A stretch of 64,000 nucleotides of DNA. It comes from Betaproteobacteria bacterium. GTDB lineage: Bacteria; Acidobacteriota; Vicinamibacteria; Vicinamibacterales; CAVVIG01. Made by a program: the position numbers and the translations under genes. Under the pieces are notes generated by a model. That model saw only the letters and a list, made by a program, of their open reading frames with translations, had not been told where the DNA came from and made no database searches. Positions within the stretch are counted from its first letter, which is position 1; every line of letters starts with the position of its first letter. The stretch spans positions 51,651 to 115,650 of the forward strand of contig JBLMXQ010000133.1 in NCBI GenBank assembly GCA_050257855.1, given 5' to 3'. This document shows, in pieces, positions 6,971-57,777 of the stretch.

Positions 6971-7799
6971 TTGAGGCCAGGCCGTCGGTCTTCAGGACAC
7001 GTGTGCCATGTCCGCGATTTCCAGCCGATCGTCGCGTATCTGTTCACCGAGTACAAGTGCAACCTCGATTGCCACTACTGCTACTCATTCGACAACCGCG
7101 TCAAAGGCATGACCGAGGAGGTGGCGCGCGTCTCGCTGGACTGGCTGCACTCGACGACCTGCCGGGTGCTCGCGTTGATGGGCGGCGAAGTGATCCTCCG
7201 GCCGAAGTTCTTGCACAAGGTCGTCTATTACGCGGCGAAGAGGGGGGTCTGGATCTAAGCCGAAGGCGCTCACGCCGATTCGCTCGTACTTCGAGCACCT
7301 GGCGAAGAAGCAGTACCGCTACGGTTACACGGTCTTCTTCAACATCAACATCTGCCGCAACAACCTCGACGACGTGAGAGAGCTGACCGAGATCGCGCAC
7401 GACCACAAGATCTCGACCGACTATCACATCAACGAGGGAGCCGCTCGTCGAGCAGCCGCACTTCAAGCACCTGGGCGGGAACCCGACCTACTTCCGCCTC
7501 GCGGCGCGCACCACGAGCCGTGGAACTGCCGCGCGGGGCAGAACACGGTCATCATCCGCGTCGACGGCACGCTGGCGCCCTGCTTTCCGATGTACTCGGC
7601 GTCGCACGACCGGGGAGTCGTCGGCGAGCCGAAGTTCGACCGCGCGCAGCTCCTGGACATGAAAGCGACGTGCGAGCCGAACTGCTTCTCGACGCTGAAT
7701 CACATCGTCGGCTGGTGCTACAACGACGCCCGTGTCGTCAGGTGGCTGGCGCGACAGGCGCTGCACGGGTTCCAGGGCGTGCGCGGCAACTTCGAATAG
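6971..7799 (+). pseudogene. Radical SAM (SPASM/twitch-like C-terminus) gene, disrupted
   Basis: The N-terminal part carries CNLDCHYC (CxxxCxxC) and ends at TAA 7256-7258, just after a G6 run (7242-7247). The sequence continues in another frame (KPKALTPIRSYFEHLAKKQYRYGYTVFFNINICRNNLDDVRELTEIAHDHKISTDYHINE). A further frame change lies near 7437-7500 before WNCRAGQNTVIIRVDGTLAPCFPMY ... CEPNCFSTLNHIVGWCY. Confidence 0.6.
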
Positions 7800-7944
7800 C
7801 GGCCGCCGCGGCGGGCCTGCCGCCGCGGGCGCAGACCGGTGCCCGCCAGGCGCGGCCGGATCCCACCGTGCTGGCCGATGCGAGCCGGCGTGGCTCGGGG
7901 GGCAGTGTAAGCGACTGACAGGGAAGAACATAGCTGAGCAGCAC

Positions 7945-7973
7945 TTGCTATTCGATGTCGATTGGGCTAATAT
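7945..7973 (+). promoter_or_regulatory. Sigma-70-type promoter candidate for the suf operon (TTGCTA-N17-TAATAT)
   Basis: TTGCTA at 7945-7950, a 17-nt spacer, and TAATAT at 7968-7973, 34 nt before the sufA ATG. It lies in a locally AT-richer stretch. A CCGACC/GGTCGG inverted repeat (7974-7979 / 7998-8003) follows. Confidence 0.45.
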
Positions 7974-21416: not shown

Positions 21417-21485
21417 ACCGACCGGAAAACCGGCTCGTCCGCACACCTTGATTGCGGCTTCCCGTCAGGTGCCGCCGTGCGGCGC

Positions 21486-21500
21486 TGGAACCATGATTGC
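21486..21500 (+). promoter_or_regulatory. Weak sigma-54-type element (TGGAAC-N5-TTGC) upstream of the sigma-factor gene
   Basis: GG and GC are correctly spaced, and the -12 C lies 25 nt before ATG 21525. There is one mismatch in the -24 box. Confidence 0.3.
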
Positions 21501-21524
21501 GTACGCTGCTCGAGAGGGCCTGCC

Positions 21525-23093
21525 ATGACACGCTCTGACGACAGCAGCGCGACGCGATTGACCCTCGAAGGCGAACTGGAGCGGCTCCTCGAGCTCCACG
21601 GCACGCGCCCGTCCGCCGATCCGCCTTCGCCGGCGCCGTCCGATCCACCAGCGGAATTCGTGGCGGCAGCGGACGACAACGAGGCGCCCCGCCAGGGTGC
21701 GTGGCGCGAATGGGAGAGCCCTGCGGAGGAAGAGGCGGTGCACGAAGAGGCACGTGCCGCCGACCTCGAGCCGATCCGCACATACCTGAACGAGATGGCG
21801 CGCGTACCGCTGCTCACGCGCGATCAGGAAGTCGAGATCGGCCGGCGTATCGAGACCGCTCAGAGAAACCTCTTCGGTGTGCTGGCGACGATTCCCTTCG
21901 CGGTGCGACGGCTCGTCCGGCTGGCCGATCGCATCGGACGGCAGGAAGCGGCGTTCGAGGAGCTAATCGTGTTCCCCGAGGGGCGTGAGGTGGACGTCGC
22001 GGAAGCGCTCGCCATTCTGCGCGCCTTTGGCCGCGTGGACCGGCTCGCGCACGAGCTGGACGATCTCCGGCGGAAGGTGCACGACCGTCGTCTGGCAGCG
22101 TCGACGCGGGCGACCTGCAAACGCCGGATTGCGCGCGCCGAGCGCGACCTGCACACCCTGCTGCTGGCACAGCACGTCAAGCCGGCGGTCCTCGACACGC
22201 TGGTGGACGAACTCCGGCCGCTCGCTGCCGCGCTGGACGCCGTGGATCAGGAGCGGGACTCGTCGGCCCGCCGCGCGCGGGTCAAGGCGCTCGAGGCGCA
22301 GATCGGCCTTGCGCGGAAGGATTTCGAGGAGGCGTTCGCCCGCGCGCTCGAGCACGACGAGGACATCCGCCGCGCGAAGAGGACGCTCATCGAGGCCAAC
22401 CTCCGGCTCGTCGTCTCGATCGCGAAGCGGTACACGGGCCGGGGCCTGTCGCTGCTGGATCTCGTCCAGGAAGGCAATCTGGGCCTCATGAAGAGCGTCG
22501 AGCGCTTCCAGTACCGGCGCGGGTTCAAGTTCTCTACCTACGCTACGTGGTGGATCCGGCAGGCCGTCACGCGTGCCATCGCCGACCTCGGGCGGACGAT
22601 CCGCCTGCCCGTTCACGCCGCCGACGCGCTGTCTCAGATCGACAAGGCGCGACGTGCGCTGCGTGACGAGCTCCGCCGGGAGCCGACGGTCCGGGAAGTG
22701 GCCGACCGTGCGGATATCGTGCCCGACAAGGTGGAGTTCCTGCTGCGCGCGCGGGCCGAGCCGTACTCGCTCGACATGCCGGTCGGCGAGGAGACCCCGC
22801 TCGCCGACTTCCTGACGCTCGAAGGCCCCTCGCCCGAGGAGCTGACGCTCGGCCGCGATCTGCAGACGCGCATCCGCGGCTATCTCGGGAAGCTGTCCGA
22901 TCGCGAGCGCGACATCATCAAGTTGCGGTACGGCATCGGCACCGGCCGCGAGCACTCGCTCGAAGAGATCAGCCGCCGGTACGCGCTCAGCCGCGAGCGC
23001 ATCCGCCAGATCGAGACGTCGGCGATGAGGAAGCTGCGGACTTCCTGGACCGTCTTCGGCGTCCGTCCGGGCCATCAGCGCAGGACAGGATAG
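21525..23093 (+). CDS. Sigma-70 family RNA polymerase sigma factor, RpoD-like (group 1/2)
   Basis: [27 protein letters not shown] ... [16 protein letters not shown] ... [43 protein letters not shown] ... [18 protein letters not shown]. Confidence 0.88.
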
Positions 23094-24055: not shown

Positions 24056-24070
24056 TGGCACTGCAGTTGC
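24056..24070 (+). promoter_or_regulatory. Sigma-54 promoter (TGGCAC-tgcag-TTGC), full consensus
   Basis: Exact TGGCAC-N5-TTGC. The -12 C lies 32 nt before ATG 24102, and GGGAGG (24091-24096) lies in between. Confidence 0.65.
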
Positions 24071-24101
24071 GAATCAGGAACATGGGATCCGGGAGGTCAA
24101 C

Positions 24102-33860: not shown

Positions 33861-33878
33861 TTGACGGCTTTCCGTCAA
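33861..33878 (+). terminator. Perfect hairpin TTGACGG-cttt-CCGTCAA just after the polX stop
   Basis: 7-bp stem with a 4-nt loop, 14 nt downstream of the stop, inside an AT-richer patch (ccaaaatatt). There is no U-tract, so it could equally be an operator. Confidence 0.35.
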
Positions 33879-33935
33879 GCTTGGCGACAACTCGTCAGCA
33901 AGGGCGTTCTTTGCCCATGATCATCGGCGGCCGGG

Positions 33936-33950
33936 CGGCACGTGGCTTGC
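33936..33950 (+). promoter_or_regulatory. Sigma-54-type promoter (cGGCAC-gtggc-TTGC) upstream of the tandem USP gene
   Basis: GGCAC-N5-TTGC. The -12 C lies 38 nt before ATG 33988, with GGGGAGG in between. Confidence 0.55.
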
Positions 33951-33987
33951 GCTCCTATTGCCTGACGGGGGGCGTGGGGAGGTTGTC

Positions 33988-34881
33988 ATGGTGGAGATTC
34001 GACGCATTCTGTGTCCAATCGATTTCTCGGACTGCTCGCGCCGGGCGCTGCAGCATGCCGTTGCGATCGCGAAGTGGTACGAGTCGCACATCACCGCGCT
34101 TCACGTGATCCGCCCGGTCTTCATTCCGCAGCCGCCCGTGCTCTTCGCGGCGCCGGCCAAAGCCGCCACCAGCGCCGATCGTGACGCGCTCGAACAGGAG
34201 CTTCGCGGCTGGCTCGAGCCGGCAAAGCAGGCGGGCGTCAAGGCCGACCTGGTCTTCGACGAGGGGGTTCCGGCGTCGCGGATCGTCGATCACGTGAGCA
34301 AGCTTCAGGCGGACCTGATCGTCATGGGCACGCACGGAACGAGCGGACTCGAACGGTTCATGCTCGGCTCCGTCGCCGAGAGGGTCCTGCGGACCGCAGG
34401 CTGTCCTGTGATGACCGTCCCGCCGCCCGTGACGGGCGCCGGGAGGATTCCGTACACGAAGATCCTCTGCCCGGTGGACTTCTCAGATTCTTCGCTGACG
34501 GCGTTACAGTACGCCTTCTCGCTGGCGAAGGAGTCCGACGCGCGGGTCACGATCCTTCACGTCTTCGAATGGCCGGCCGAGGCCGAGATGCCGATCCAGG
34601 GGTTCGACGTGCCCGAGTACCGCCGCCTGATCGAAGGTGACGCGCGCGCGCGTCTCGATGCCCTGGTGACCGACGACGTTCGCGTCTGGAGCAAGCCGGA
34701 AACGCGAGTGGCTCATGGAAAACCGTACCGGCGGATTCTGGAGGCGGCCGAGGCGGACGGCGCCGATCTCATCGTCATGGGCGTCCACGGGAGAAATCCG
34801 CTGGATATGGCGCTCTTCGGATCGACGACGAATCATGTCGTCCGGCGCGCGCCGTGCCCGGTGCTGACGCTGAAGCAGTAG
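33988..34881 (+). CDS. Tandem universal stress protein (two UspA domains)
   Basis: ILCPIDFSDCSRRAL...ADLIVMGTHGTSGLERFMLGSVAERVLRTAGCPVMTV, repeated as ILCPVDFSDSSLTAL...ADLIVMGVHGRNPLDMALFGSTTNHVVRRAPCPVLTL. Confidence 0.88.
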   Translation: MVEIRRILCPIDFSDCSRRALQHAVAIAKWYESHITALHVIRPVFIPQPPVLFAAPAKAATSADRDALEQELRGWLEPAKQAGVKADLVFDEGVPASRIVDHVSKLQADLIVMGTHGTSGLERFMLGSVAERVLRTAGCPVMTVPPPVTGAGRIPYTKILCPVDFSDSSLTALQYAFSLAKESDARVTILHVFEWPAEAEMPIQGFDVPEYRRLIEGDARARLDALVTDDVRVWSKPETRVAHGKPYRRILEAAEADGADLIVMGVHGRNPLDMALFGSTTNHVVRRAPCPVLTLKQ

Positions 34882-38566: not shown

Positions 38567-38595
38567 TCGAGGGATTCAGGCGGCCGTCGTGCAAG
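38567..38595 (-). promoter_or_regulatory. Heat-shock-type promoter candidate (CTTGCA-N16-CCCTCGA) upstream of hsp20
   Basis: On the minus strand: CTTGCA (38595-38590), 16 nt, then CCCTCGA (38573-38567), 38 nt before the ATG. It resembles the CTTGAA / CCCCATnT sigma-32 pattern. Confidence 0.3.
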
Positions 38596-38713
38596 CGGTG
38601 AGCCATGGCGACCGGGCCCTGAGGCGCGGCAACGCCGGAGTCGACGCCGTGGCGCTGTCAGGTTGCCGTGCAGTGTGCGAGTGAAAGGTGTAGCAGGGGC
38701 CTACGCGCGTGAC

Positions 38714-42121: not shown

Positions 42122-43789
42122 GTGGCTGCGATGCGACGGAGCGGGGGCGGCGCCGACCCGCAGTGGTACAAGGACGCGGTCATCTACGAGCTTCCCGTCA
42201 AGTCCTTCTGCGACAGCAACGGCGACGGCATCGGCGACTTTCGTGGCCTCAGCGGCAAGCTCGACTACCTGCGCGACCTCGGCGTCACGTGCCTCTGGCT
42301 CCTCCCGTTCTTCCCCTCGCCGCTCAGAGACGACGGCTACGACATCGCCGACTACGTGGGCGTGCACCCGAGCTACGGCACGCTCGACGATTTCAAGCGG
42401 TTCCTCGACGACGCTCACGAACGCCATCTGCAGGTCGTCGTCGAGCTCGTGCTCAACCACACCTCCGACCAGCATCCGTGGTTCCAGCGCGCGCGGTCCT
42501 CGCCTCCAGGATCTGCCGAGCGCGACTACTACGTCTGGAGCGACACGGACCAGCGGTATCGCGATGCCCGCATCATCTTCCTCGATGCCGAACGCTCCAA
42601 CTGGACGTGGGACCAGGAGGCGCAGGCGTACTATTGGCACCGCTTCTTCCATCACCAGCCCGATCTCAACTACGACAACCCGGCCGTGGTCGCCGAGATG
42701 CTCGGCGTGCTCGATTTCTGGCTGGACCTCGGCGTCGACGGCTTCCGTCTGGACGCCGTGCCGTATCTGGTGGAGCGCGACGGCACCAGCTGCGAGAACC
42801 TGGCCGAGACGCACGTCCTGATCAAGGCGATCCGGCGGCATCTCGACGCGCGCAGTCCCGGACGACTCCTCCTGGCCGAAGCCAATCAGCCGCCGGCGGA
42901 AGTCCGCGCGTACTTCGGCGACGGCGACGAATGCCACATGGCCTATCACTTCCCGGCGATGCCGCGCATCTTCATGGCGCTGCACCTCGAGGACCGGGAG
43001 CCGATCGTCGACGTGATGGAGCGCACCCCGCCGATCCCGGAGAGCTGCCAGTGGGCACTCTTCCTGCGCAATCACGACGAGCTCACCCTCGAAATGGTGA
43101 CCGACGATGAACGCGACTACATGTATCTGGCGTACAGCCTCGATCCCCACGCGCGGCTGAACCTCGGGATCCGGCGCCGGCTGGCGCCCCTCGCCGGGAA
43201 CAGCCGGCGCCGGATCGAGCTGCTGAACGCGCTGCTGTTCTCGTTTCCGGGCACGCCGATCATCTACTACGGCGACGAGATCGGGATGGGCGACAATCTG
43301 TATCTCGGCGATCGCAATGGCGTCCGCACCCCCATGCAGTGGACGAGCGATCGCAACGCCGGCTTCTCCCGCGCAGACCCGGAGCGGCTGTACAGTCCCG
43401 TGATCATGGACGCCGTGTACGGCTATCAGGCCATCAACGTCGAAGCGCAGGACAGCGACAGCGCGTCGCTGCTGCACTGGATGCGGAACATGATCCGGCT
43501 CCGGCGGATGTTCAAGGTGTTCGGCCGCGGCACGATCGAGTTCCTGCAGCCGGCGAACCGCAAGGTGCTGTCCTACATCCGCCGGTTCGGCGACGACGTC
43601 ATCCTGTGCGTCGCGAATCTTTCGCGGTGGGCGCAGCCCGCGGAGCTCGACCTGCGCGCGTTCGCCGGATCGACGCCGGTCGAGATGCTCGGGTACACCG
43701 AGTTTCCCCCGATTGGCGAGCTGCCGTACTTCCTGACGCTTGGGCCGTATGGTTTCTACTGGTTCGAACTCCAGCGCCCCCGCGCCTGA
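42122..43789 (+). CDS. treS: Trehalose synthase (maltose alpha-D-glucosyltransferase), GH13
   Basis: [29 protein letters not shown] ... [10 protein letters not shown] ... LLAEANQ ... [22 protein letters not shown] ... [13 protein letters not shown]. There is no fused maltokinase domain. Confidence 0.93.
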
Positions 43790-45017
43790 GGCCCCGGCCG
43801 CGCGCGCCGACCTGGTCGTCGCGGTGATGACCCTCGACGACGCCCGGACGATCGGTGCGGTGCTGCGCGCGGCGATGGACGCCTTTGCGCGGCAGTTCAG
43901 CTCACAAGAGGCGCGCATCCTGATGGCCGACGCGCGGTCGACCGACGGGACGCGCCAGGTGGCGCGCGACGCGGCCGGTGCCGCACTCGTGGAAGTGGAG
44001 TATCCGGTGCCGGCGACGCTGCCCGAGATGCCGTATCACGGGCATCCGGGCAGAGCCGGCGCGCTGAGGGCGATTCTGCAGGCGGCCTTCGCTCTGGGCG
44101 CCCGGGCGTGCGCGGTCGTCGATGCCCGGCTGGACGCGCCGACGCCGGAGCGGATCGAGCGGCTGATCGGTCCCGTGCTCGCCGACGGCTTCGACTACGT
44201 GTCGCCGTACTACACCCGCCGGGCGCACGAAGGCGCCATCACCAAGGGCATCGTGTACCCGATGTTCCGCGCGCTCTACGGCGTCCGCCTGCGGCAGCCG
44301 GTCGCCGGCGAGTTCGGCTGCTCGGCGCGCGCGATGGCGCACTATCTGGAACAGGACTTCTGGGACGTCGAGCACGCGCAGTCGGGCATCGACCTGTGGC
44401 TCGCGGTCGAGGCCGCCTGCAGCGCGTTTCGAGTCTGCGAGGCGCCACTGGGAGCGTACCGGACCACGGCGCGCGATGCCGGGGTCGACATGAGCACGAC
44501 GCTCGCCCAGATCGTCGGAGCGCTGTTCGCCGATCTCGAGTACCGCGTGGACTTCTGGCAGCGCTGCCGCGGATCGGTGCCGGTCCCGGTCGTGGGGACG
44601 GCGCCGGCCGCAGCCGGCGAGGAGTCGCCGGTGCCGGTGGACGGCCTGATCGACTCGTTCCGGCTCGGCTACCGGGAACTGCACGCGATCTGGACGTCCG
44701 TGCTGCCGCCCCGAACGATTCTGGATCTGCGGCGGCTCACCGACGCGCCGCTCGAGCGCTTCCGGTTTCCCGATCGGCTCTGGGCCGGCATCGTGTACGA
44801 CTTCGCGCTCGGGTACGGGTTGCGCGTCATGCCGCGCGATCACCTGCTGCGATCGCTGGCGCCGCTCTACAGCGGCTGGCTGGCGTCGTTCGTCCTCGAG
44901 ACCGGTGGCGCCGCGCGCTTCCGGGTCGAGGAGCGCGTCGAGCAGATCGGCGTCGCGTTCGAGGCGGAGAAGCGGCAGCTCATCTCGGGCTGGCGCTGGC
45001 CGGAGCGTCCGAGATAG
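43749..45017 (+). CDS. GT-A-fold glycosyltransferase-like protein (possibly a glycosyl-glycerate-type compatible-solute synthase)
   Basis: [19 protein letters not shown] ... [12 protein letters not shown] ... [10 protein letters not shown] (DxD-like) ... The start (ATG 43749 or TTG 43740) overlaps the treS 3' end. The specific activity is only a guess from the treS context. Confidence 0.5.
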
Positions 45018-48127: not shown

Positions 48128-48574
48128 ATGGCGCGCATGCGACGGATTCTCTTCGCGTCGGATTTCTCGCCGGCTTCACGCCGGGCCTTTGCCACGGCCC
48201 TGCGGATGGCGCGCGCGAACCGCGCGAAGCTGAGTGTGCTTCACGTGATCACGCCGATTGCCGCGATCCCGACCGACCCGGCCGCGCCCGTGACGCTGTG
48301 GCAGGAGATCGAGCGGAGCACGCGCGCGTGGGCGACGGGGCAGGTCAAGCGGCTGGTTGCGCGCGCCCGGAAGGCCGGTGTCCGGGCCGAAGGGCTCCTG
48401 CGCGAGGGCGCGCCGGCCGAGACCGTCGTCCGCACGGCCCGATCCACGCGGGCCGACCTCATCGTCATCGGCACGCACGGGCGTACCGGGCTGTCGCGGA
48501 TGTTCGTCGGCAGCGTCGCCGCACGCGTGGTGGCGACCGCGCCGTGTCCTGTGGTCACAGTCCGCGGCCGGTAG
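48128..48574 (+). CDS. Universal stress protein (single UspA domain)
   Basis: ILFASDFSPASRRAF ... ADLIVIGTHGRTGLSRMFVGSVAARVVATAPCPVVTV. Confidence 0.88.
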   Translation: MARMRRILFASDFSPASRRAFATALRMARANRAKLSVLHVITPIAAIPTDPAAPVTLWQEIERSTRAWATGQVKRLVARARKAGVRAEGLLREGAPAETVVRTARSTRADLIVIGTHGRTGLSRMFVGSVAARVVATAPCPVVTVRGR

Positions 48575-51304: not shown

Positions 51305-51408
51305 CGTGTCTCCCTCCAGGACCCGGGGAGTATATCAACGGCGCCGGAAATCCGGCATCGGACTCTCGTCAGTCAGTGCCTGACGGCCCAAGGGCGCGTC
51401 CCGTACGG

Positions 51409-51423
51409 TGGCAGGCCGGTTGC
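51409..51423 (+). promoter_or_regulatory. Sigma-54-type promoter (TGGCAG-gccgg-TTGCA) upstream of the LolA-like/ABC operon
   Basis: TGGCAg-N5-TTGCA. The -12 C lies 27 nt before ATG 51450. Confidence 0.55.
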
Positions 51424-51449
51424 AGCTCAGGTTGACGTCACCCACGGCC

Positions 51450-52199
51450 ATGAACGCGATCCTTTCGGCGGCCGCCGGCCTGCTCGCCCTCGCTCTCCCG
51501 CTGGCCGGCGCTCCGCGGCAGCCGAACGTGGATCGGCTGCTGCAACACCTCGACGACCTCTACCGGTCCACGAGCAGCATCGCGCGGATGGAGATCCTCG
51601 TCACCACGCCGCGGACGACGCGGAGCCTTCGCATGAAGGCGTGGACGAAGGGCGAGGACCGCGTGCTCGTCGTGATCGAGGCGCCGGCCCGCGAAGCGGG
51701 CACGGCAACGCTCCGCGTGGCCGACAACCTGTGGAACTACCTGCCGCGAATCGCGCGCACGATCCGCGTGCCGCCGTCCGCGATGCTCGGCTCGTGGATG
51801 GGAACCGACTTCACGAACGACGATCTCGTGAAGGAGTCGTCGCTCAGGAAGGACTTCGACGCCCGGATCGATCGCCGAAGTGATGCGCCGCCCGGCTGGT
51901 GGCTCGTCCTCGACGTGAAGCCGGGCGCGGTGGGCCGCTGGAATCGGATCGATCTGCTCGTCGACGACGAGCAGCTGCCGGTCGAGGAGCGGTTCTTCGA
52001 TCGCAAGGGGCGTCTCGCGCGCACCATGCGCTTCGACGACGTGCGGGTGCTCGGCGGGCGGCGCATGCCGGCACGCTTCACGCTGACGCCGGCCGACACC
52101 GAGGGCCAGCGCACACAACTGCGGTATCTCGAGGCGCAGTTCGACATCGCCGTGCCGGAGGACACGTTCAGCCTCTCGAGACTCGAGCAGCACCGATGA
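51450..52199 (+). CDS. Outer-membrane lipoprotein-sorting (LolA-like) periplasmic protein
   Basis: A signal peptide (LLALALPLAGA) is followed by MEILVTTPRTTRSLRMKAWTKGEDRVLVVIEAPAREAGTATLRV.DNLWNYLPRI..TIRVPPS.MLGSWMGTDFTNDDLV, the LolA_like family pattern. Confidence 0.75.
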   Translation: MNAILSAAAGLLALALPLAGAPRQPNVDRLLQHLDDLYRSTSSIARMEILVTTPRTTRSLRMKAWTKGEDRVLVVIEAPAREAGTATLRVADNLWNYLPRIARTIRVPPSAMLGSWMGTDFTNDDLVKESSLRKDFDARIDRRSDAPPGWWLVLDVKPGAVGRWNRIDLLVDDEQLPVEERFFDRKGRLARTMRFDDVRVLGGRRMPARFTLTPADTEGQRTQLRYLEAQFDIAVPEDTFSLSRLEQHR

Positions 52200-53425
52200 A
52201 CCGGAGCACGTGGCGCATCGCCTGGCGGAGTCTCTGGCGCAACCGCCGGCGCACGGCGCTGGCGCTGGCCGCGATCGGGCTCTCGGTCGCCCTGGTCCTG
52301 CTCTACGACTCCGTGCTCCGCGCCTACGGCGACTGGATGGTCGAGACGATCACGGGGCCGATGCTCGGCCATGTGCAGGTGCATGCGCCGGGCTGGCGCC
52401 GCGATCGGTCGATGGACCGGACCATCCGCGGCGTGCCGGACCTGCTCGCGGCGTTGCGGCGGGATCCCGCGGTGGCAGGCGCGACGGCGCGCGTGTACGC
52501 GCCGGCACTCGCCGCGCGATCCGAGGAGGGATTTACGGTCGTCGTGCTGGGCATCGATCCGCGCCTCGAGACGGGGCCGGCGCGGCTGCTCACCTCCGAT
52601 GTTCCGCCCATCGAGGGCCGGCGCGTCCTCCTCGGGCGCGCGCTCGCGGACCAGATGGGCGTCCACCCGGGCGATACGCTCGCGATCGTCGGGCAGGCGG
52701 CGGATGGCTCGACGGCGAACGACCTCTACACGGTCGCCGGTCTCGCCCAGACGCCGCTCGATCTGGTGAACCGACAGGGCGTCGTGATGGATCTGGCCGA
52801 AGCGCAGGCCCTGTTCGCGATGCCTGGCGAAGCGCACGAGATCGTGGTGCATGCCGTGCGTCCGGACGATGCCGCGCGGCTCGCCGCGGCGCTCCGCGGC
52901 TGGCCGGCGCTCTCCCATCTCGAAGTCCTCGACTGGCGGACTCTGTCCCCGGAGATGGTGAGTCTCGTCGAGATCGTGCAGGTGGCGTGGGTGGTCGTGC
53001 TCGGTCTCGTGTTCGTGGCTGCCGCGGCCGGCGTCGCCAACACGATGCTGATGGCCACTTTCGAACGCACCCGTGAGTTCGGCATGCTTCTCGCCCTCGG
53101 CACCGCACCGGCCCGCATCGTCCAGATGATTCTCGCCGAATCGGTCGCCCTCGGCGCCATCGGCGCGGTGTGCGGAACCGCGGTTGCCGTGGCGCTGGTC
53201 GCCGCCGTGCACAGCACCGGCATCGACTATGCGACGCTGACCGGCGGTGGACCGTCGGAGCTGTCGTTTGCCGGCCTCCACTGGTCGCTCCGGCTCTACC
53301 CGACGCTGGCCGTCGTGGACGTCGCGCGCGCGGCCGCTGCCGTCGTGATCACGTCGATAGCCGCCGCGGCGTGGCCCGCGATCCGTGTCGCGCGCCTGCA
53401 GCCCGCGGCGGCGCTGAGGGCCTGA
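52196..53425 (+). CDS. ABC transporter permease, FtsX/MacB-type (4 TM with large periplasmic loop)
   Basis: WRIAWRSLWRNRRRTALALAAIGLSVAL ... the C-terminal FtsX block REFGMLLALGTAPARIVQMILAES ... ATGA overlap with the upstream gene. Confidence 0.85.
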   Translation: MNRSTWRIAWRSLWRNRRRTALALAAIGLSVALVLLYDSVLRAYGDWMVETITGPMLGHVQVHAPGWRRDRSMDRTIRGVPDLLAALRRDPAVAGATARVYAPALAARSEEGFTVVVLGIDPRLETGPARLLTSDVPPIEGRRVLLGRALADQMGVHPGDTLAIVGQAADGSTANDLYTVAGLAQTPLDLVNRQGVVMDLAEAQALFAMPGEAHEIVVHAVRPDDAARLAAALRGWPALSHLEVLDWRTLSPEMVSLVEIVQVAWVVVLGLVFVAAAAGVANTMLMATFERTREFGMLLALGTAPARIVQMILAESVALGAIGAVCGTAVAVALVAAVHSTGIDYATLTGGGPSELSFAGLHWSLRLYPTLAVVDVARAAAAVVITSIAAAAWPAIRVARLQPAAALRA

Positions 53426-54657
53426 TGCCGGTCTCGACGACCTACGCGCTGCGCAGCATCGGCCGCAACGCCCGGCGGACCGCGCTGTCGGTGGTCGGCA
53501 TCGGGATCGGGTGCGCGCTCGCGCTGTTGATGGAGAGCATGAACCGGGGCCGCGACGAGCTCTTCGCGCGCACGGCCGCGTACAGCGGTGTCGGCCACGT
53601 CCGCGTGGTCCCGGCCAGGTGGCAGGAGCGGCGGGACCCGAGATTGCGTCTGGCCGACTGGCGGGCGGACCTGTCCGCCGCCCGCGCGCTGCCCGGCGTA
53701 TCAGCCGCCACGGTACGGGCGCGAACCCAGGCACTGCTGGCCATGGGGACGCACGTCGTGCCGGTGGAGATGACCGGCGTCGAGGCCGCCGCTGAGCCGG
53801 CGACGAACCGCTTCGTGCGGCGCGTCGCCTCGGGCCGCTACCTGCGGCCCGGTGAGCGCGACGCGGTGGTCATCGGCAGGGCGATCGCGGATCGACTCCG
53901 CGCCGACGTGGACGACGACGTGCTGGCGACCGCCGTCGGTGCGGGGGGACGCTTCGAGAGCATGATGCTCCGCGTTGCCGGCATCGTCGAGACCGGCAGC
54001 GAGGAGATCGACGCCGGGCTCTGCCAGGTGTCGGTCGACGACGTGGAACGCCTTACCGGACTGGCCGGCGGCGGCGAGATCGTGGTGATGCTGACGGACT
54101 GGCGCACGCTGCACGCCGCGCGGGACGCCCTGGCCGGACGGCTGCGAACCGGCGACGTGGTGCTGACGTGGGAGGACATCACGCCCGAGATGAAAGGGCA
54201 CATCGAGCAGGACAACGCATCCTCGCGGTTCGTCAGCGCCGTCATCCTGCTGATCGTGCTCCTCGGGGTCGCGAGCGCGCAGCTCGCCGCGGTGCTGGAG
54301 CGCCGCAGGGAATTCGCGGTCCTCGCGGCTCTCGGGATGCGGGCCAGCACGATGGCGCGGATCGTGCTGCAGGAAGCGGCCACGCTCGGAGTCGCCGGCG
54401 CCCTCGTCGGCCTCGCGATCGGAGGCCCGCTCGTCTGGCAGTTCGCGCGCGTGGGGCTCGACCTTCGACGCTACATGGGAGGGAGCTACACGTTCCAGGG
54501 GGTGCTGATCGAGCCGATCATCTACGGCGACATCGGCTCCTGGATCGTGGTGTACGTGTTCGTGGTGGCGATCGCCGCGACGATGGTCGCCTCGCTGTAC
54601 CCGGCCTGGTTCGCGGCGCGCACCGAGCCGGCGGCCGCGCTGCGGGTGGCGCAATGA
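53425..54657 (+). CDS. ABC transporter permease, FtsX/MacB-type (second copy)
   Basis: YALRSIGRNARRTALSVVGIGIGCAL ... REFAVLAALGMRASTMARIVLQEA ... The ATG overlaps the upstream stop by 1 nt. Confidence 0.85.
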   Translation: MPVSTTYALRSIGRNARRTALSVVGIGIGCALALLMESMNRGRDELFARTAAYSGVGHVRVVPARWQERRDPRLRLADWRADLSAARALPGVSAATVRARTQALLAMGTHVVPVEMTGVEAAAEPATNRFVRRVASGRYLRPGERDAVVIGRAIADRLRADVDDDVLATAVGAGGRFESMMLRVAGIVETGSEEIDAGLCQVSVDDVERLTGLAGGGEIVVMLTDWRTLHAARDALAGRLRTGDVVLTWEDITPEMKGHIEQDNASSRFVSAVILLIVLLGVASAQLAAVLERRREFAVLAALGMRASTMARIVLQEAATLGVAGALVGLAIGGPLVWQFARVGLDLRRYMGGSYTFQGVLIEPIIYGDIGSWIVVYVFVVAIAATMVASLYPAWFAARTEPAAALRVAQ

Positions 54658-55400
54658 GCGGCGAGATCATCAGCGCACGCGGGCTGACCAAGACGTTCAG
54701 CCAGGGCGCAACCGAGGTGCACGCGCTTCGCGGCGTCGATCTCGAGGTGGGCGCCTCGGAGTTTCTCGCGCTCGTCGGGCCATCCGGAAGCGGAAAGACG
54801 ACGCTGCTCAATCTGATCGGCGCGCTCGATGCCCCCACGTCGGGTCAGCTCCTCGTGCTCGGGCGCGCCGTCGCCGCCCTCACGCGCGCCGAGCGTGCGG
54901 AGCTGCGCCTGCGCTCGATCGGCTTCGTGTTCCAGGCGTACAACCTCGTGCCGGTCCTGACGGCGCTCGAAAACGTCGAGTTCGTGCTCGAGCTCCAGGG
55001 CGCCGGGCGCGATCGGCGGCATCGTGCCCGCGAGGTCCTCGCCGAGCTCGGCCTGTCGGATCTCGCCGACCGCCGGCCGGGTGAGCTGTCCGGCGGGCAG
55101 CAGCAGCGCGTGGCGGTGGCCCGCGCCGTCGCCGCGCGCCCTGCGCTCGTCCTGGCCGACGAGCCGACGGCGAATCTCGACGGCGAGAACGCAGAGACGC
55201 TCATGCACCTGATGCGCGATCTGCGCGACCGCCACGGGATGACGTTCGTGTTCTCCACCCACGACCCGCGCGTCGTCACCCACGCCGTCCGTGTCGTCAC
55301 GCTCGTGGACGGGCGCGTCGTGCGCGACGAGCTGAAGCCAGGCGAGCCGCCGCACGAGATCCTGCCGGGCATCGGCCGCGGCGCCGCAGCGGAGGCGTGA
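54654..55400 (+). CDS. ABC transporter ATP-binding protein (LolD/MacB-ATPase-like)
   Basis: GPSGSGKTTLLN, LSGGQQQRVAVARAV, LVLADEPTANLD. ATGA overlap with the upstream permease gene. Confidence 0.9.
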   Translation: MSGEIISARGLTKTFSQGATEVHALRGVDLEVGASEFLALVGPSGSGKTTLLNLIGALDAPTSGQLLVLGRAVAALTRAERAELRLRSIGFVFQAYNLVPVLTALENVEFVLELQGAGRDRRHRAREVLAELGLSDLADRRPGELSGGQQQRVAVARAVAARPALVLADEPTANLDGENAETLMHLMRDLRDRHGMTFVFSTHDPRVVTHAVRVVTLVDGRVVRDELKPGEPPHEILPGIGRGAAAEA

Positions 55401-55401
55401 C

Positions 55402-56625
55402 GTGCGCCCGCGCGCCGCCGCCGCGGTGCTGGCGACGGCGCTCGCCGCCGCGCCGGCGGCGAAGGCCCAGGAGTCGGGCGCCGGGCCGGCGCTGACGCTG
55501 CGCACGTCGTTGAAGGGCAGCATCCTGCTGACGCGCGCTCCCGACGATCCCGAGCTGTTTCCCCAGCGCGATTCCGCGACGACGTTGTGGCGGATCCGCT
55601 TCGAGCCGTCGATCCGCCCCACGCCGAGCCTGACCGTGACGATCGCCTACGAACAGCGGCTGCGGTTCGCGTCGGCGCCGGCCGGCTTTCAGAGCGCCGC
55701 CGCGCTGCCATCCGAGGCTCCCGCGCCGTACCGAATCCGTCAGCTCGACTGGACGCTGTCCGACGGCGCACGCTCGTCGTGGCGACACGAGGTCGACCGG
55801 GCGCTGGTCGCCTGGCGCCTGCCCAAGGCGGAGATCACGGCAGGTCGCCAGGCCATCGGCTGGGGTCGGGGCGTGATGTTCGGCGCCGTCGACCTGTTCG
55901 CGCCGTTCTCGCCGGTCGAGGCCGACCGTGAATGGCGCCGCGGCGTGGACGCCGTGCGCGCCGACGTCAGGCTCGCCGCTCGCGTCTCGCTCGACACGGT
56001 CGGTGCGTTCGGGCGGACGATCGACACCTCGGTCTTTGCGGCGCGCCTGCGAGGATACGCCGGGCGCGCGGACGTCGAGGTGGTCGGCGGCCGCCGCGCC
56101 CGCGACGACTTCGGCGGGCTGACGGCGTCGGCCGCAGTGGGCGACACCGAGCTTCACGGCGAGACGGCGGTGTTTCGCACGCCCGAGAGGGGCACGGTCG
56201 TCAAGGCCGTCGCCGGCGGGTCCTATCGTCTGCCGATCGGCACCGGGGTGCTCGTATTCGGTGAATATCAGTACTCGGGATTCGGCGCGACCAGCGCCGC
56301 GGCCATCCTGCCGCTGCTGGCCGATCCCGCATTTCAGGAGCGCTACCTGCGCGGCGACACGCAGACGCTCGGGCGCCACGCCGTCGGGGTGCTGCTGACC
56401 AGCGAGTGGTCTCCGTCACTCTCGCTCGGCGGCCAGTGGCTGCACAATCCGGTCGACGGCTCCGGCATCGTGGTCCCGTCGGCCACCTTCGTGCTGGGGG
56501 ATCGACTTTCGATCCTGGCGAACGTGTACCTGGCGTACGGACGGCGTCCCGAGGGATGGCAACTCGCCACGGAGTACGGCGCGGGCGGGATGTCGGGTTT
56601 CCTGCAGGTCCGGTTCTATAACTAA
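55402..56625 (+). CDS. Hypothetical secreted protein, probable outer-membrane beta-barrel
   Basis: Starts 1 nt after the ABC ATPase stop. Signal peptide ...AAAPAAKAQ. Alternating-hydrophobicity strands occur throughout (TLWRIRFEPSI, SLTVTIAYEQRLRF). The C-terminus is GFLQVRFYN. Confidence 0.5.
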   Translation: MRPRAAAAVLATALAAAPAAKAQESGAGPALTLRTSLKGSILLTRAPDDPELFPQRDSATTLWRIRFEPSIRPTPSLTVTIAYEQRLRFASAPAGFQSAAALPSEAPAPYRIRQLDWTLSDGARSSWRHEVDRALVAWRLPKAEITAGRQAIGWGRGVMFGAVDLFAPFSPVEADREWRRGVDAVRADVRLAARVSLDTVGAFGRTIDTSVFAARLRGYAGRADVEVVGGRRARDDFGGLTASAAVGDTELHGETAVFRTPERGTVVKAVAGGSYRLPIGTGVLVFGEYQYSGFGATSAAAILPLLADPAFQERYLRGDTQTLGRHAVGVLLTSEWSPSLSLGGQWLHNPVDGSGIVVPSATFVLGDRLSILANVYLAYGRRPEGWQLATEYGAGGMSGFLQVRFYN

Positions 56626-56634
56626 GATACGGGG

Positions 56635-57777
56635 GTGATTGCTTCCCGCCGGGTGCGGCTCCTCGAGTTCGCCGTCGACCACTCCCTCGTCCTGCCCGTC
56701 GGCGCCATCGTCGCTCTCGTGTGGGCGAACACGAGGCCCGAGACGTACCAGCGGTTTTCGCACGCGCTGCTCTTCGCGGTCAACGACGTCGCGATGGTCT
56801 TCTTCTTCGCGCTCGCCACCAAGGAAGTCGTCGAGGCAACGGCGCCCGGCGGCGCCCTGCACACGTGGCGCCGCGCGGCGCTGCCCGTGGTCGCCGCCAC
56901 CGGCGGCATGATCGGCCCGGCGCTCATCTATCTGCTGGCGGTGCATTTCTGGGGCCGGCCGGTGCTGACGCGCGGGTGGGCGATTCCCTGCGCGACCGAC
57001 ATCGCGTTCAGCTATCTCGTGGCGCGCGGCATCTTCAGGCGCCACCCGGCTATTCCGTTCCTCCTCCTCCTCGCCATCGCAGACGATGCGCTCGGACTGA
57101 TCATCCTGGCGGTGTTCTACCCGATCGGCGAGCTCCACCTGTTCCAGGCCTCCCTGCTGATGGCAGCCGCCCTGTCCGTCTCGTACGTCATCCGGCAGCG
57201 GAAGGCGAGGAGCTTCTGGCCGTACATCGTCGCGGGCGGCAGCTTTTCCTGGGCGGCGCTGTACGTCGGCGGCCTCCATCCGGCGCTCGCGCTCGTGCCG
57301 ATCGTCCCGTTCCTGCCGCACGCCGCGCGCGATCCCGGGCTGTTCATCGAGGCGCCGCCGACCGCGCACGACACCCTGAGCGAGTTCGAGCGCTCGTGGA
57401 AGTACCCGGTCCAGGTCGTCCTGTTCTTCTTCGGGCTCGTGAACGCCGGCGTGCCCCTTCAGCAGGTCGGCGTCGGGACATGGGCCGTGCTGATCGCGAT
57501 ACTGGCGGGCAAGCCGATCGGCATCATCGCGTCGGTCGTCGCCGCGGTTCTGGCCGGCCTTCGTCTGCCGGCCAGGCTGAGCTGGGCGGACCTCGTCGTC
57601 GTCGGCTTTGCCGCTGCGATCGGGTTCACCGTCGCGCTGTTCTTCGCGACGGCCGCGTTTCCCGTCGGGCCGCTGCTCGACGAGACGAAGATGGGGGCGC
57701 TCCTGAGCGTCGGCGGATCGATTGTGGCGTTTGCCGCGGCGGCGCTGCTGCGGGTCGGGCGCTTCGAGAGGAGCTGA
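56635..57777 (+). CDS. nhaA: Na+/H+ antiporter NhaA
   Basis: VNDVAMVFFFALATKEV ... GWAIPCATDIAFSYLV ... LLLAIADDALGLIILAVFY ... are NhaA signature blocks. Confidence 0.9.
   Translation: MIASRRVRLLEFAVDHSLVLPVGAIVALVWANTRPETYQRFSHALLFAVNDVAMVFFFALATKEVVEATAPGGALHTWRRAALPVVAATGGMIGPALIYLLAVHFWGRPVLTRGWAIPCATDIAFSYLVARGIFRRHPAIPFLLLLAIADDALGLIILAVFYPIGELHLFQASLLMAAALSVSYVIRQRKARSFWPYIVAGGSFSWAALYVGGLHPALALVPIVPFLPHAARDPGLFIEAPPTAHDTLSEFERSWKYPVQVVLFFFGLVNAGVPLQQVGVGTWAVLIAILAGKPIGIIASVVAAVLAGLRLPARLSWADLVVVGFAAAIGFTVALFFATAAFPVGPLLDETKMGALLSVGGSIVAFAAAALLRVGRFERS

What the first reader, a model, noticed from the sequence alone, without database searches (positions are those of the whole stretch)
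51409..56625. Five-gene, fully overlapping LolA-like / FtsX / FtsX / ABC-ATPase / putative beta-barrel operon behind a sigma-54-type promoter
Seen in sequence:
- The operon encodes a periplasmic LolA-like protein, two paralogous FtsX/MacB-type permeases, an ATPase and a 407-aa signal-peptide protein with beta-strand periodicity.
- The genes are joined by an ATGA overlap, a 1-nt overlap, an ATGA overlap and a 1-nt gap.
- No membrane-fusion (HlyD-type) protein or TolC is present.

Established knowledge: LolCDE plus LolA moves lipoproteins to the outer membrane, and MacB-type pumps need a periplasmic adaptor.

Inference: here a LolA-like carrier and a dedicated outer-membrane barrel are hard-wired to the transporter. 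This suggests an envelope-spanning route for a hydrophobic cargo (lipoprotein, lipid or other) distinct from the housekeeping Lol system. The cargo and the role of the barrel protein are unknown.
Basis: partly seen in the sequence, partly recalled or inferred. Interest (0 to 1): 0.55.

Follow-up and report, generated by a model that had tools for sequence, protein, structure and literature searches.

The report
Lol-like transporter with its own barrel
A tightly packed five-gene unit encodes a Lol-type inner-membrane ABC extractor, a periplasmic LolA-like carrier and an uncharacterised 18-stranded outer-membrane barrel; the same unit recurs in genomes labelled as about a dozen bacterial phyla, so it is probably an unstudied route for moving a lipid-anchored molecule to the outer membrane.

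Summary
Five + strand genes lie at 51450-56625, joined by ATGA, a 1-nt overlap, ATGA and a 1-nt gap. They encode:
- a PF17131 LolA-like periplasmic protein;
- two paralogous 4-TM FtsX permeases, 28.6% identical, whose best solved relatives are LolF, LolE and LolC;
- a LolD/MacB-class ATPase;
- a 407-aa protein that AlphaFold2 models as an ~18-strand beta-barrel (pLDDT 81.6).

The barrel belongs to a large family with no Pfam model (2009 clusters at 50% identity). It resembles DUF1302, AlgE and Occ barrels.

The five-gene order is kept in 57 of 58 genome loci with enough flank, under about 13 phylum-level labels. It also holds for barrels only 23-29% identical. Ralstonia and Burkholderia plasmids carry a rearranged version with a fused permease.

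No flanking gene is conserved across phyla. NCBIfam LolCE and LolD cut-offs are not met.

The sigma-54 site is a single one-mismatch match. It is not conserved, and no activator gene was found among the window ORFs scanned.

Best reading: an accessory, self-contained Lol-like route from inner to outer membrane; cargo unknown. Whether this genome also has a canonical Lol system could not be tested.

The parts
51409..51424 (+). sigma-54-like -24/-12 match TGGCAGgccggTTGCA (candidate only)
   Evidence: One mismatch to TGGCAC-N5-TTGCW. Three such matches occur in the window against 0.86 expected. It lies 26 nt upstream of the ATG at 51450 and overlaps the alternative GTG start at 51408. Comparable sites occur upstream of the module in only 3 of 58 related loci. 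No sigma-54 activator gene was found among the window ORFs scanned.
51450..52199 (+). periplasmic LolA-superfamily protein (249 aa; PF17131 LolA_like / TP_0789-like), signal peptide, no lipobox
   Evidence: Pfam E 8e-39, 133.6 bits against a cut-off of 30. PDB sequence hits are 3bk5, 9tp6 and 3buu, E 3e-10 to 1e-9. There is one N-terminal hydrophobic segment. NCBI calls the 249-aa form 'outer membrane lipoprotein-sorting protein'. Orthologues in most related loci have AxA-type signal peptides ahead of the conserved mature N-terminus; read by eye, and the regex lipobox flags (5 of 58) fall in unbounded upstream ORF translation.
52196..53425 (+). FtsX/LolC-LolE-type permease 1 (409 aa; TM1, ~220-aa periplasmic domain, TM2-4)
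   Evidence: Pfam FtsX. NCBIfam lolCE 97 bits against a cut-off of 362. Best PDB sequence hits are LolF and LolC/LolE; LolF aligns from about residue 75 to the C-terminus, while MacB aligns only in the TM part. Hydropathy was computed.
53425..54657 (+). FtsX/LolC-LolE-type permease 2 (410 aa), paralogue of permease 1 (28.6% identity)
   Evidence: Pfam MacB_PCD and FtsX. NCBIfam lolCE 106 bits against a cut-off of 362. Best PDB hit is LolE, E 4.5e-16, full length. Paralogy was measured. The two orthologue lines stay distinct in all related loci.
54654..55400 (+). ABC ATPase of the LolD/MacB/DevA class (248 aa)
   Evidence: Pfam ABC_tran E 9e-34. LolD TIGR02211 scores 211 bits against a cut-off of 308, and DevA 211 bits. 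All catalytic motifs are present.
55402..56625 (+). outer-membrane beta-barrel, ~18 strands, of a family with no Pfam model; most conserved element is loop L3 (res. 148-184, GRQAIGWGRG...DxFxPFxPxExDREWRxGVDA)
   Evidence: No Pfam or NCBIfam family. AlphaFold2 pLDDT 81.6, pTM 0.78. Foldseek best TM-scores are to 18-strand barrels: chitoporin 0.60, AlgE 0.55, OccAB4 0.52. The family has 2009 clusters at 50% identity. Weak DUF1302, Alginate_exp and Wzi hits occur in some members. Topology and conservation were analysed.

Best explanation
The five genes encode one self-contained, accessory trans-envelope export machine built on the Lol plan.

Proposed steps:
1. Two copies of the ATPase power a heterodimer of the two FtsX permeases, a type VII 'mechanotransmission' ABC transporter like LolCDE.
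2. The transporter pulls an amphipathic, probably lipid-anchored, molecule out of the outer leaflet of the inner membrane.
3. It hands the molecule to the soluble LolA-superfamily protein.
4. That carrier delivers the molecule to the dedicated 18-strand barrel in the outer membrane.
5. The barrel inserts the molecule into the outer membrane or exposes it on the surface. Because the barrel lumen is polar and conserved, the polar part of the cargo (polypeptide or glycan head group) would pass through the barrel while the lipid part enters the membrane.

Shown here:
- the identity and topology class of each part;
- the tight gene coupling;
- the conservation of the set;
- that the set does not meet the LolCDE equivalog criteria.

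Inferred:
- that the parts act together as a complex;
- the direction of transport;
- the carrier acting as a shuttle;
- the nature of the cargo.
For: - Part identities.
- The barrel: AlphaFold2 model and Foldseek matches; signal peptide, amphipathic strands, and short, poorly conserved predicted periplasmic turns against long conserved extracellular loops.
- Gene coupling: overlapping or abutting stop and start codons.
- Order LolA-like, FtsX1, FtsX2, ABC, barrel: kept in 57 of 58 genome loci with at least 4.3 kb of upstream flank. The records are labelled Acidobacteriota, Myxococcota, Gemmatimonadota, Latescibacterota, Planctomycetota, Verrucomicrobiota, Lentisphaerales, Eisenbacteria, Poribacteria, TA06, Fermentibacteria, Armatimonadota and 'Proteobacteria'.
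- Deep divergence: the association holds for barrels only 23-29% identical (L087, L088, L090).
- Independent rearrangement: on Ralstonia and Burkholderia plasmids the order is LolA-like, ATPase, fused double-FtsX permease, barrel. The genes again overlap, and the barrel matches the family profile with hhalign probability 100 and E 1.7e-48.
- Self-contained: no flanking gene is conserved beyond one clade.
- Not a LolCDE equivalog: 97-106 bits against 362 for LolCE, and 211 against 308 for LolD.
- Analogous pairings in the literature:
  - DUF1302 (18-strand barrel) with DUF1329 (LolA/LolB-like), co-fit with an RND exporter (bioRxiv 10.1101/072470) and predicted to form a complex with ipTM 0.84 (PMC13499233).
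  - Borrelia BBJ23-29: a LolA-like protein, a MacB-like ABC transporter and an Omp85 barrel (PMC13078400).
Against: - No physical interaction was tested or modelled; no multimer prediction is available here.
- The AlphaFold2 model of the LolA-like protein failed (pLDDT 37). Its fold rests on Pfam and PDB sequence matches only.
- The barrel's predicted periplasmic turns are 2-5 residues long and poorly conserved. There is no obvious conserved docking surface for a periplasmic carrier.
- The lumen is polar and charged, which does not suit a purely hydrophobic cargo.
- No cargo or biosynthetic gene is linked to the module, so the substrate is a guess.
- At least one distant barrel relative (P0207) sits next to an unrelated lipoprotein gene rather than an ABC transporter.
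- Many of the 58 loci are closely related Latescibacterota genomes and are not independent.
- Phylum labels come from MAG record titles and may be wrong, as this window's own label appears to be.
Confidence: 0.55

Rival explanations
1. It is this lineage's housekeeping lipoprotein pathway. The two permeases and the ATPase are its LolCDE, the PF17131 protein is its LolA, and the barrel replaces the missing LolB as the outer-membrane lipoprotein acceptor or insertase.
For: The permeases' best solved relatives are LolF, LolE and LolC, aligned over all or most of their length. The best NCBIfam hits are lolCE and LolD. Permease heterodimer plus LolA-superfamily partner is the Lol layout. LolB is known to be missing outside a few groups (PMC9963962). 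No other Lol-type gene lies in the 64-kb window.
Against: Scores are far below the equivalog cut-offs. The carrier is PF17131, not LolA PF03548. The pattern-limited genome scan confirmed the barrel in 171 stretches among 185,579 species genomes, which looks patchy for an essential pathway. A version sits on accessory plasmids of betaproteobacteria, which have LolABCDE (the latter is established knowledge). The polar barrel lumen is unlike a lipoprotein-acyl acceptor.
Confidence: 0.1
2. It is a MacAB-TolC-like efflux or secretion pump for a soluble or amphipathic small molecule or peptide. The barrel replaces TolC as the exit channel, and the LolA-like protein replaces the membrane-fusion adaptor.
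For: MacB_PCD and FtsX domains and a MacB/DevA-class ATPase are present. The barrel resembles substrate-specific channels (Occ, chitoporin, AlgE) and has a polar conserved lumen with inward-type loops L3 and L7. No cargo gene is linked, as expected for a general efflux function.
Against: No HlyD-type adaptor or TolC-family gene occurs in the window or in the conserved module. A ~25-kDa soluble LolA-fold protein cannot bridge the periplasm as a hexameric adaptor does (established knowledge). The ATPase is a separate protein, not fused as in MacB. The permeases align best with Lol proteins.
Confidence: 0.15
3. It handles outer-membrane lipid or hydrophobic-nutrient traffic in the inward or homeostatic direction, as Mla does (MlaA-porin, MlaC, MlaFEDB). 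The barrel admits or extracts a lipidic compound, the LolA-like protein carries it across the periplasm, and the ABC transporter takes it into or removes it from the inner membrane.
For: Barrel plus soluble lipid carrier plus ABC transporter is the Mla layout (established knowledge). DUF1302/DUF1329 mutants of P. putida have fitness defects on fatty esters (bioRxiv 10.1101/2020.07.04.188060). A LolA-like/MMPL protein is induced on long-chain alkanes in Thalassolituus (PMC6304351). The barrel looks like an uptake-type specific channel.
Against: Characterised type VII (MacB/LolCDE-type) transporters extract or expel, and none is known to import (established knowledge; PMC5985334 reviews the family). 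No catabolic genes are conserved next to the module.
Confidence: 0.12

Closest known systems
LolABCDE lipoprotein trafficking system (E. coli type; LolDF variant)
   Same: Both have two paralogous 4-TM permeases with large periplasmic domains and a separate LolD-class ATPase. Both have a soluble LolA-superfamily partner with a signal peptide. The best solved relatives of both permeases are LolF, LolE and LolC.
   Different: NCBIfam equivalog cut-offs are not met. The carrier belongs to PF17131, not the LolA family. The outer-membrane partner is an integral 18-strand barrel encoded in the operon, not the LolB lipoprotein. All parts sit in one operon.
DUF1302 / DUF1329 (+ BNR protein + RND exporter) clusters of Pseudomonadota
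   Same: An 18-strand barrel whose Foldseek neighbours are AlgE and Occ channels is paired with a LolA/LolB-like protein and an inner-membrane energised transporter (PMC13499233; bioRxiv 10.1101/072470). Members of the present barrel family give sub-threshold DUF1302 hits at the GRQ motif: 8 of 46 members, best 19.8 bits against a cut-off of 23.2.
   Different: The barrel is ~400 aa, while the DUF1302 profile is 541 positions, and it does not reach the Pfam cut-off. The carrier is PF17131, not DUF1329. The motor is a type VII ABC transporter, not an RND pump. There is no BNR protein.
Borrelia BBJ23-BBJ29 cluster (PMC13078400, computational description)
   Same: A LolA-like protein, a MacB/LolE-like ABC transporter and a dedicated outer-membrane barrel lie in one cluster. 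[quoted passage not shown]
   Different: The Borrelia barrel is Omp85-type, not an 18-strand porin-like barrel. Its permease is a homodimer of one gene. Two TPR chaperones are present. The cluster is restricted to Borrelia.
Mla and Lpt lipid transport systems
   Same: The logic is shared: an inner-membrane ABC complex, a periplasmic lipid-binding element, and an outer-membrane barrel component (MlaA-OmpC/F; LptDE).
   Different: The protein families are unrelated: MlaE/LptFG permeases, MlaC, and the LptA/LptC/LptD jellyroll. No homology was detected here.
MacAB-TolC / DevBCA-HgdD tripartite pumps
   Same: FtsX/MacB-type permease with a periplasmic core domain, and the same ATPase class.
   Different: No membrane-fusion adaptor and no TolC-family duct. 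The ATPase is not fused to the permease. A LolA-like protein and a porin-like barrel take their places.

Membership tests
LolCDE (canonical lipoprotein-releasing ABC transporter) | Permease passes the NCBIfam equivalog model TIGR02212 lolCE (cut-off 362 bits) | tested here: not met
   97.2 and 106 bits
LolCDE (canonical lipoprotein-releasing ABC transporter) | ATPase passes TIGR02211 LolD (cut-off 307.75 bits) | tested here: not met
   211.4 bits. DevA (210.8) and MacB (200.3) score about the same.
LolCDE (canonical lipoprotein-releasing ABC transporter) | Type VII ABC architecture: 4 TM helices with a large periplasmic domain between TM1 and TM2, two permease subunits and a separate ATPase | tested here: met
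   Hydropathy gives TM1 at about 20-40, then TM2-4 after residue 263-273 in both proteins. MacB_PCD and FtsX domains are present. Alignments to LolE and LolF cover all or most of the length.
LolCDE (canonical lipoprotein-releasing ABC transporter) | Partner chaperone is LolA (Pfam PF03548) recruited by the LolC hook | tested here: not met
   The partner matches PF17131 only. The hook could not be assessed because no usable model or complex prediction was available.
LolCDE (canonical lipoprotein-releasing ABC transporter) | It is the only, essential, Lol-type system of the genome | not testable with these tools
No other Lol-type gene lies in the window.
LolA_like / TP_0789-like (Pfam PF17131) | Score above the Pfam gathering cut-off (30 bits) over the whole domain | tested here: met
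   133.6 bits, profile positions 1-184 of 184. PDB sequence relatives are 3bk5, 9tp6, 3buu and 4z48.
MacAB-TolC tripartite efflux pump | HlyD-type membrane-fusion adaptor and TolC-family outer-membrane factor | tested here: not met
   Neither family appears in the module, in the 28 other window ORFs scanned, or as a conserved neighbour in the related loci.
MacAB-TolC tripartite efflux pump | ATPase domain fused to the N-terminus of the permease (MacB) | tested here: not met
   The ATPase is a separate 248-aa protein.
Outer-membrane beta-barrel protein (generic) | Signal peptide, even number of amphipathic antiparallel strands, short periplasmic turns and long external loops, aromatic residue at or near the C-terminus | tested here: met
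   The AlphaFold2 model has 18 strands if residues 116-140 count as one. Lipid-facing and lumen-facing residues alternate in every strand except b4, where both faces score equally; turns are 2-5 aa, loops reach 33 aa, and the C-terminus is ...RFYN. Foldseek probability is 1.0 to porins.
DUF1302 (Pfam PF06980) | Score above the gathering cut-off (23.2 bits) | tested here: not met
   The window protein gives no hit. Eight of 46 family members hit with E of 0.005 or weaker. The Ralstonia member scores 19.8 bits.
Alginate export AlgE family (Pfam PF13372) | Pfam match, and genetic linkage to polysaccharide synthesis genes | tested here: not met
   Only 3 of 46 members give weak hits. Structural TM-score to AlgE is 0.55. 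No polysaccharide genes are conserved next to the module; one locus has an inserted deacetylase and acetyltransferase.
Sigma-54-dependent promoter | GG-N10-GC element close to consensus at a suitable distance from the start codon, conserved among orthologous operons, with an enhancer-binding activator | tested here: inconclusive
   There is a one-mismatch match 26 nt upstream of the ATG. Sites with at most one mismatch occur in 3 of 58 related loci against ~0.33 expected. No Sigma54_activat gene was found among the window ORFs scanned. One distant barrel gene lies next to such an activator.

The most novel reading that the evidence does not exclude
The module is an unrecognised, widely distributed trans-envelope pathway that stands beside Lol, Lpt and Mla. 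A Lol-like extractor and a PF17131 carrier feed a new family of 18-strand barrels. The barrel acts as an outer-membrane translocon: it threads the polar part of a lipid-anchored cargo (a surface lipoprotein or a glycolipid) through its conserved charged lumen and releases the lipid anchor into the outer leaflet. The DUF1302/DUF1329 systems of Pseudomonadota would be the RND-driven sister of the same principle.
Probability: 0.25. Interest if true: 0.85.

Novelty: new variant of a known kind. Interest (0 to 1): 0.6.

Why it matters
Outside the well-studied Pseudomonadota it is still unclear how lipid-anchored molecules are inserted into, or exposed on, the outer membrane. LolB is missing from most phyla (PMC9963962).

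This operon permanently couples a Lol-type extractor and a LolA-type carrier to its own outer-membrane barrel, and it recurs in genomes labelled as about a dozen phyla. It is therefore a concrete, testable candidate for such a route.

It also defines a large outer-membrane protein family that has no Pfam model and is annotated only as 'hypothetical protein'.

A rearranged version occurs on plasmids of culturable Ralstonia and Burkholderia strains and in Anaeromyxobacter terrae SG22. Genetics, co-purification and ligand identification are therefore feasible.

Tried and rejected
- AlphaFold2 of the LolA-like protein, using 30 homologues about 72% identical to it, gave pLDDT 37. The model was unusable, so no fold search was run on it.
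- A profile of the barrel family found nothing among PDB sequences, even at E up to 10. The link to known barrels rests on Foldseek and on sub-threshold Pfam hits.
A narrower alignment (A3) was used instead. The genome survey is therefore biased towards members that keep the two motifs, and only the best 80 of 171 confirmed stretches were returned.
- A conserved sixth gene (regulator, biosynthesis or cargo) was sought by all-against-all BLAST of flanking ORFs. Only clade-level synteny was found.
- The 341-aa gene beside the distant barrel P0207 was tested as a possible hidden LolA-like partner. It gave no match to a LolA-like profile and has no Pfam family. It looks like an unrelated lipoprotein.
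- Sigma-54: considered as the real promoter and downgraded. No sigma-70-like site was found in the region either.
- The alternative GTG start at 51408 would give a more basic signal-peptide N-region and would swallow the sigma-54 site. It is not the form on record at NCBI. The start remains unproven.
- The 680-aa ATPase-barrel 'fusion' (P0042) is a read-through of two in-frame ORFs. The barrel keeps its own Met and signal peptide, so it was not taken as a true fusion.
- Literature searches for TP0789, PF17131, LolA-like with FtsX, and type VII ABC with LolA found no description of this five-gene module.

Full report
**What is in the sequence**

The window has about 70% G+C. On the + strand at 51450-56625 lie five ORFs:
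- a 249-aa protein at 51450-52199, with an alternative GTG start at 51408;
- two ~410-aa proteins at 52196-53425 and 53425-54657;
- a 248-aa protein at 54654-55400;
- a 407-aa protein at 55402-56625.

**Identity of the four known parts**

- Protein 1 matches Pfam PF17131 (LolA_like, renamed TP_0789-like in newer releases) over the whole profile, E 8e-39.
  - Its solved sequence relatives are structural-genomics 'outer membrane lipoprotein-sorting' proteins: 3bk5, 9tp6, 3buu and 4z48.
  - It has one N-terminal hydrophobic segment and no lipobox. By eye, orthologues in most related loci have AxA-type signal peptides, so it is a soluble periplasmic protein; the regex lipobox flags (5 of 58) fall in unbounded upstream ORF translation.
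- Proteins 2 and 3 are FtsX-type permeases with TM1, a ~220-aa periplasmic domain and TM2-4.
  - They are 28.6% identical to each other.
  - Their best solved relatives are LolF, LolE and LolC, aligned over all or most of their length. MacB mostly aligns only in the membrane part.
- Protein 4 is an ABC ATPase with all catalytic motifs. It scores equally well against the LolD, DevA and MacB models.
- None of these proteins reaches the NCBIfam equivalog cut-offs: lolCE scores 97 and 106 bits against 362, and LolD scores 211 against 308.

**The fifth protein**

It matches no Pfam or NCBIfam family. All 120 closest relatives are 'hypothetical protein' with no precomputed Pfam domain. The one exception is an artefactual 680-aa read-through from the ATPase gene.

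With a 40-sequence alignment, AlphaFold2 gives a confident model (pLDDT 81.6, pTM 0.78). It has 18 antiparallel strands if residues 116-140 are counted as one long strand.

Foldseek against the PDB returns only outer-membrane porins. The highest TM-scores are to 18-strand barrels: chitoporin 0.60, AlgE 0.55 and OccAB4 0.52.

The sequence behaves as an outer-membrane protein should:
- a signal peptide ending AKA|QE;
- alternating lipid-facing hydrophobic and lumen-facing polar residues in every strand except b4;
- turns of 2-5 residues on one side and loops of up to 33 residues on the other;
- a C-terminal ...RFYN.

Of 109 lumen-facing residues, 33 are charged, and 11 of those charged residues are conserved across the family. 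The most conserved element is loop L3 (residues 148-184, GRQAIGWGRG...DxFxPFxPxExDREWRxGVDA), followed by L8, L9 and L7. The short predicted periplasmic turns are poorly conserved. AlphaFold2 is least confident in L3 although it is the most conserved part. This may mean that L3 moves or contacts a partner; that is inference.

**Size and relations of the barrel family**

An exhaustive HMMER search finds 2009 clusters (at 50% identity) with E of 0.001 or better and 830 with E of 1e-10 or better.

A family profile finds nothing among PDB sequences.

Individual members give sub-threshold Pfam hits, all centred on the GRQ motif:
- DUF1302: 8 of 46 members;
- Alginate_exp: 3 of 46;
- Wzi: 2 of 46.

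A Ralstonia member reaches 19.8 bits against the DUF1302 cut-off of 23.2. The family is best described as a new sister of the DUF1302/AlgE-like 18-strand barrels, not a member of either.

**Conservation of the gene set**

A pattern scan of one genome per species confirmed 171 stretches that encode a barrel relative, and the best 80 were returned.

tblastn with the window's five proteins shows all five genes, same strand and same order, in 57 of the 58 loci with at least 4.3 kb upstream of the barrel. The exception is a broken duplicate on one contig.

The record titles name Acidobacteriota/Vicinamibacterales, Myxococcota (including the isolate Anaeromyxobacter terrae SG22, and Archangium), Gemmatimonadota, Latescibacterota, Planctomycetota, Verrucomicrobiota, Lentisphaerales, Eisenbacteria, Poribacteria, TA06, Fermentibacteria, Armatimonadota and 'Proteobacteria'. 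Many Latescibacterota loci are close relatives, and MAG labels can be wrong.

The two permease lines stay distinct everywhere, so the duplication is old. Each orthologue is 40-69% identical to its counterpart but about 25-30% identical to the paralogue.

Identity to the window proteins across loci:

| Protein | Identity range |
|---|---|
| ATPase | 64-86% |
| LolA-like | 46-77% |
| Permeases | 39-69% |
| Barrel | 42-63% |

Barrels only 23-29% identical to the window's are still linked to the same genes:
- L087 has the full order.
- L088 has the set with two unrelated genes inserted.
- L090 has an ABC ATPase gene directly upstream.
- One distant member, P0207, instead follows an unrelated lipoprotein gene.

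No flanking gene is shared beyond a single clade. The five genes are therefore the whole conserved unit.

**An independent rearrangement**

Plasmids of Ralstonia pickettii, R. insidiosa, Ralstonia sp. RRA.1 and Burkholderia thailandensis match the barrel. In the two inspected (R. pickettii, B. thailandensis) the order is:
1. LolA-like protein (PF17131, E 8e-57);
2. ABC ATPase;
3. one 830-aa permease made of two FtsX units;
4. a 381-aa 'hypothetical protein'.

These genes again overlap. The 381-aa protein aligns end to end with the barrel family profile, with hhalign probability 100 and E 1.7e-48.

The same four functions have thus been kept together through a reordering and a gene fusion. This is good evidence that they work together. 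These plasmids are accessory replicons of betaproteobacteria, a group known to carry the canonical LolABCDE. That argues the module class is not the housekeeping Lol system. The last step rests on established knowledge and was not tested here.

**The sigma-54 claim**

TGGCAGgccggTTGCA at 51409-51424 is a one-mismatch match to TGGCAC-N5-TTGCW, 26 nt before the ATG.
- The window holds three such matches against 0.86 expected, and 6 of 100 shuffles do as well.
- Upstream of the orthologous LolA-like genes, sites with at most one mismatch occur in 3 of 58 loci. About 0.33 would be expected from the background rate of the same loci, so there is mild enrichment but no conservation.
- No sigma-54 activator was found among the 28 other window ORFs scanned.
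- One distant barrel gene does lie next to such an activator.
- The site would lie inside the gene if the GTG at 51408 were the true start. NCBI's record uses the ATG.
- No sigma-70-like site was found in the region either.

The promoter is a candidate and nothing more.

**Surroundings**

Upstream lie a divergent NHL-repeat propeller gene, then PhoD, Usp, DUF302 and ClC genes.

Downstream, nhaA starts 9 nt after the barrel stop, with no terminator-like site between them. It is followed by DivIC and CutA genes.

The rest of the window holds housekeeping genes: Suf, RpoD, RtcB, LigA, GroEL and RNase III.

RpoD's best named relatives are Vicinamibacterales, Rokubacteria and Acidobacteriota at no more than 67% identity. 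The NCBI label 'Betaproteobacteria bacterium' for this MAG therefore looks wrong.

**How it most likely works**

Shown: a Lol-like type VII ABC transporter, a soluble LolA-superfamily protein and an outer-membrane barrel are encoded as one translationally coupled unit, and that unit is conserved as a set.

Inferred, by analogy with LolCDE-LolA:
1. The transporter extracts an amphipathic, lipid-anchored molecule from the inner membrane.
2. It loads the molecule onto the carrier.
3. The carrier delivers it to the barrel.

Because the barrel lumen is polar, charged and conserved, the barrel more likely passes a polar moiety (polypeptide or glycan head group) than a bare hydrophobic molecule. A stable barrel/LolA-like complex at the outer membrane, as predicted for DUF1302-DUF1329 (ipTM 0.84, PMC13499233), is an equally possible arrangement.

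The rivals are a housekeeping Lol system with a barrel in place of LolB, a TolC-less efflux pump, and Mla-like inward or homeostatic lipid traffic. They are listed with their tests in the rival explanations.

**Comparison with what is known**

The closest described analogues are:
- LolABCDE, which shares the motor and carrier classes.
- The DUF1302/DUF1329/BNR/RND clusters. These have the same barrel class and carrier superfamily but a different motor. Their function is unknown; export of an envelope component has been proposed (bioRxiv 10.1101/072470).
- The Borrelia BBJ23-29 cluster. It has the same motor and carrier classes but an Omp85 barrel, and has been described only computationally (PMC13078400).
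- A P. gingivalis operon (TetR, MMPL, LolA-like, hypothetical protein) strongly induced by haem limitation, which may be a further relative of the theme (PMC10470040).

Full-text searches found no paper describing this five-gene module or this barrel family. The library lacks most subscription journals.

**Verdict**

This is a new variant of a known kind of system, with an uncharacterised outer-membrane protein family at its end. Interest is 0.6.

Noticed in passing
window 21417-23093 (rpoD) and the whole window: The source MAG is labelled 'Betaproteobacteria bacterium' at NCBI. RpoD and all five module proteins have their nearest named relatives in Vicinamibacterales, Acidobacteriota, Rokubacteria or Anaeromyxobacter MAGs. 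RpoD is at most 67% identical to any other sequence, which suggests a mislabelled and poorly sampled lineage.
   Followed up: partly
window 56626-57777: An NhaA Na+/H+ antiporter gene starts 9 nt after the barrel stop codon, with no terminator-like site between them. It may be co-transcribed with the module in this genome. It is not a conserved neighbour in other loci.
   Followed up: partly
L002 / L004 8001-10043 (protein P0042): The ATPase ORF runs in frame into the barrel ORF without a stop, giving a 680-aa gene call. The barrel part keeps its own Met and signal peptide. This is probably a lost stop codon or an assembly error rather than a real fusion.
   Followed up: partly
L092 2733-9628 (Ralstonia pickettii pRp12D0) and L093 2706-9541 (Burkholderia thailandensis p1): A rearranged module (LolA-like, ATPase, fused 830-aa double-FtsX permease, 381-aa barrel) is followed in both plasmids by a UbiB/ABC1 atypical kinase gene. 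That family is linked to quinone and isoprenoid-lipid handling, so this is a possible hint about the cargo.
   Followed up: partly
L088 1452-9278: In a locus whose barrel is 29% identical to the window's, an Acetyltransf_6 gene and a polysaccharide deacetylase gene lie on the opposite strand between the LolA-like gene and the permease genes. A GlcNAc 2-epimerase gene lies upstream. This is the only glycan-related context seen.
   Followed up: no
L022 about 7100-7950: An Armatimonadota MAG has a gene with a prepilin-type N-terminal methylation motif (FTLIELLVV...) inserted between the ATPase and barrel genes.
   Followed up: no
L086 1493-2824: A distant barrel homologue (P0222, about 26% identical) lies next to a convergent sigma-54-dependent response regulator gene (Response_reg, Sigma54_activat, HTH_8). 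The contig is too short to show whether an ABC module is present.
   Followed up: no
window 24056-24071 (+) and 38590-38605 (-): Two further one-mismatch matches to the sigma-54 -24/-12 consensus occur elsewhere in the window.
   Followed up: no
window 43737-45017: A 426-aa ORF with coding-type GC3 (0.90) has no Pfam match at E of 1e-4 or better.
   Followed up: no
window 48128-48574 and 33865-34881; L001 3058-3918: Universal stress protein genes lie near the module in the window. One also lies directly upstream, divergently, of the module in a related contig. This may be coincidence.
   Followed up: no
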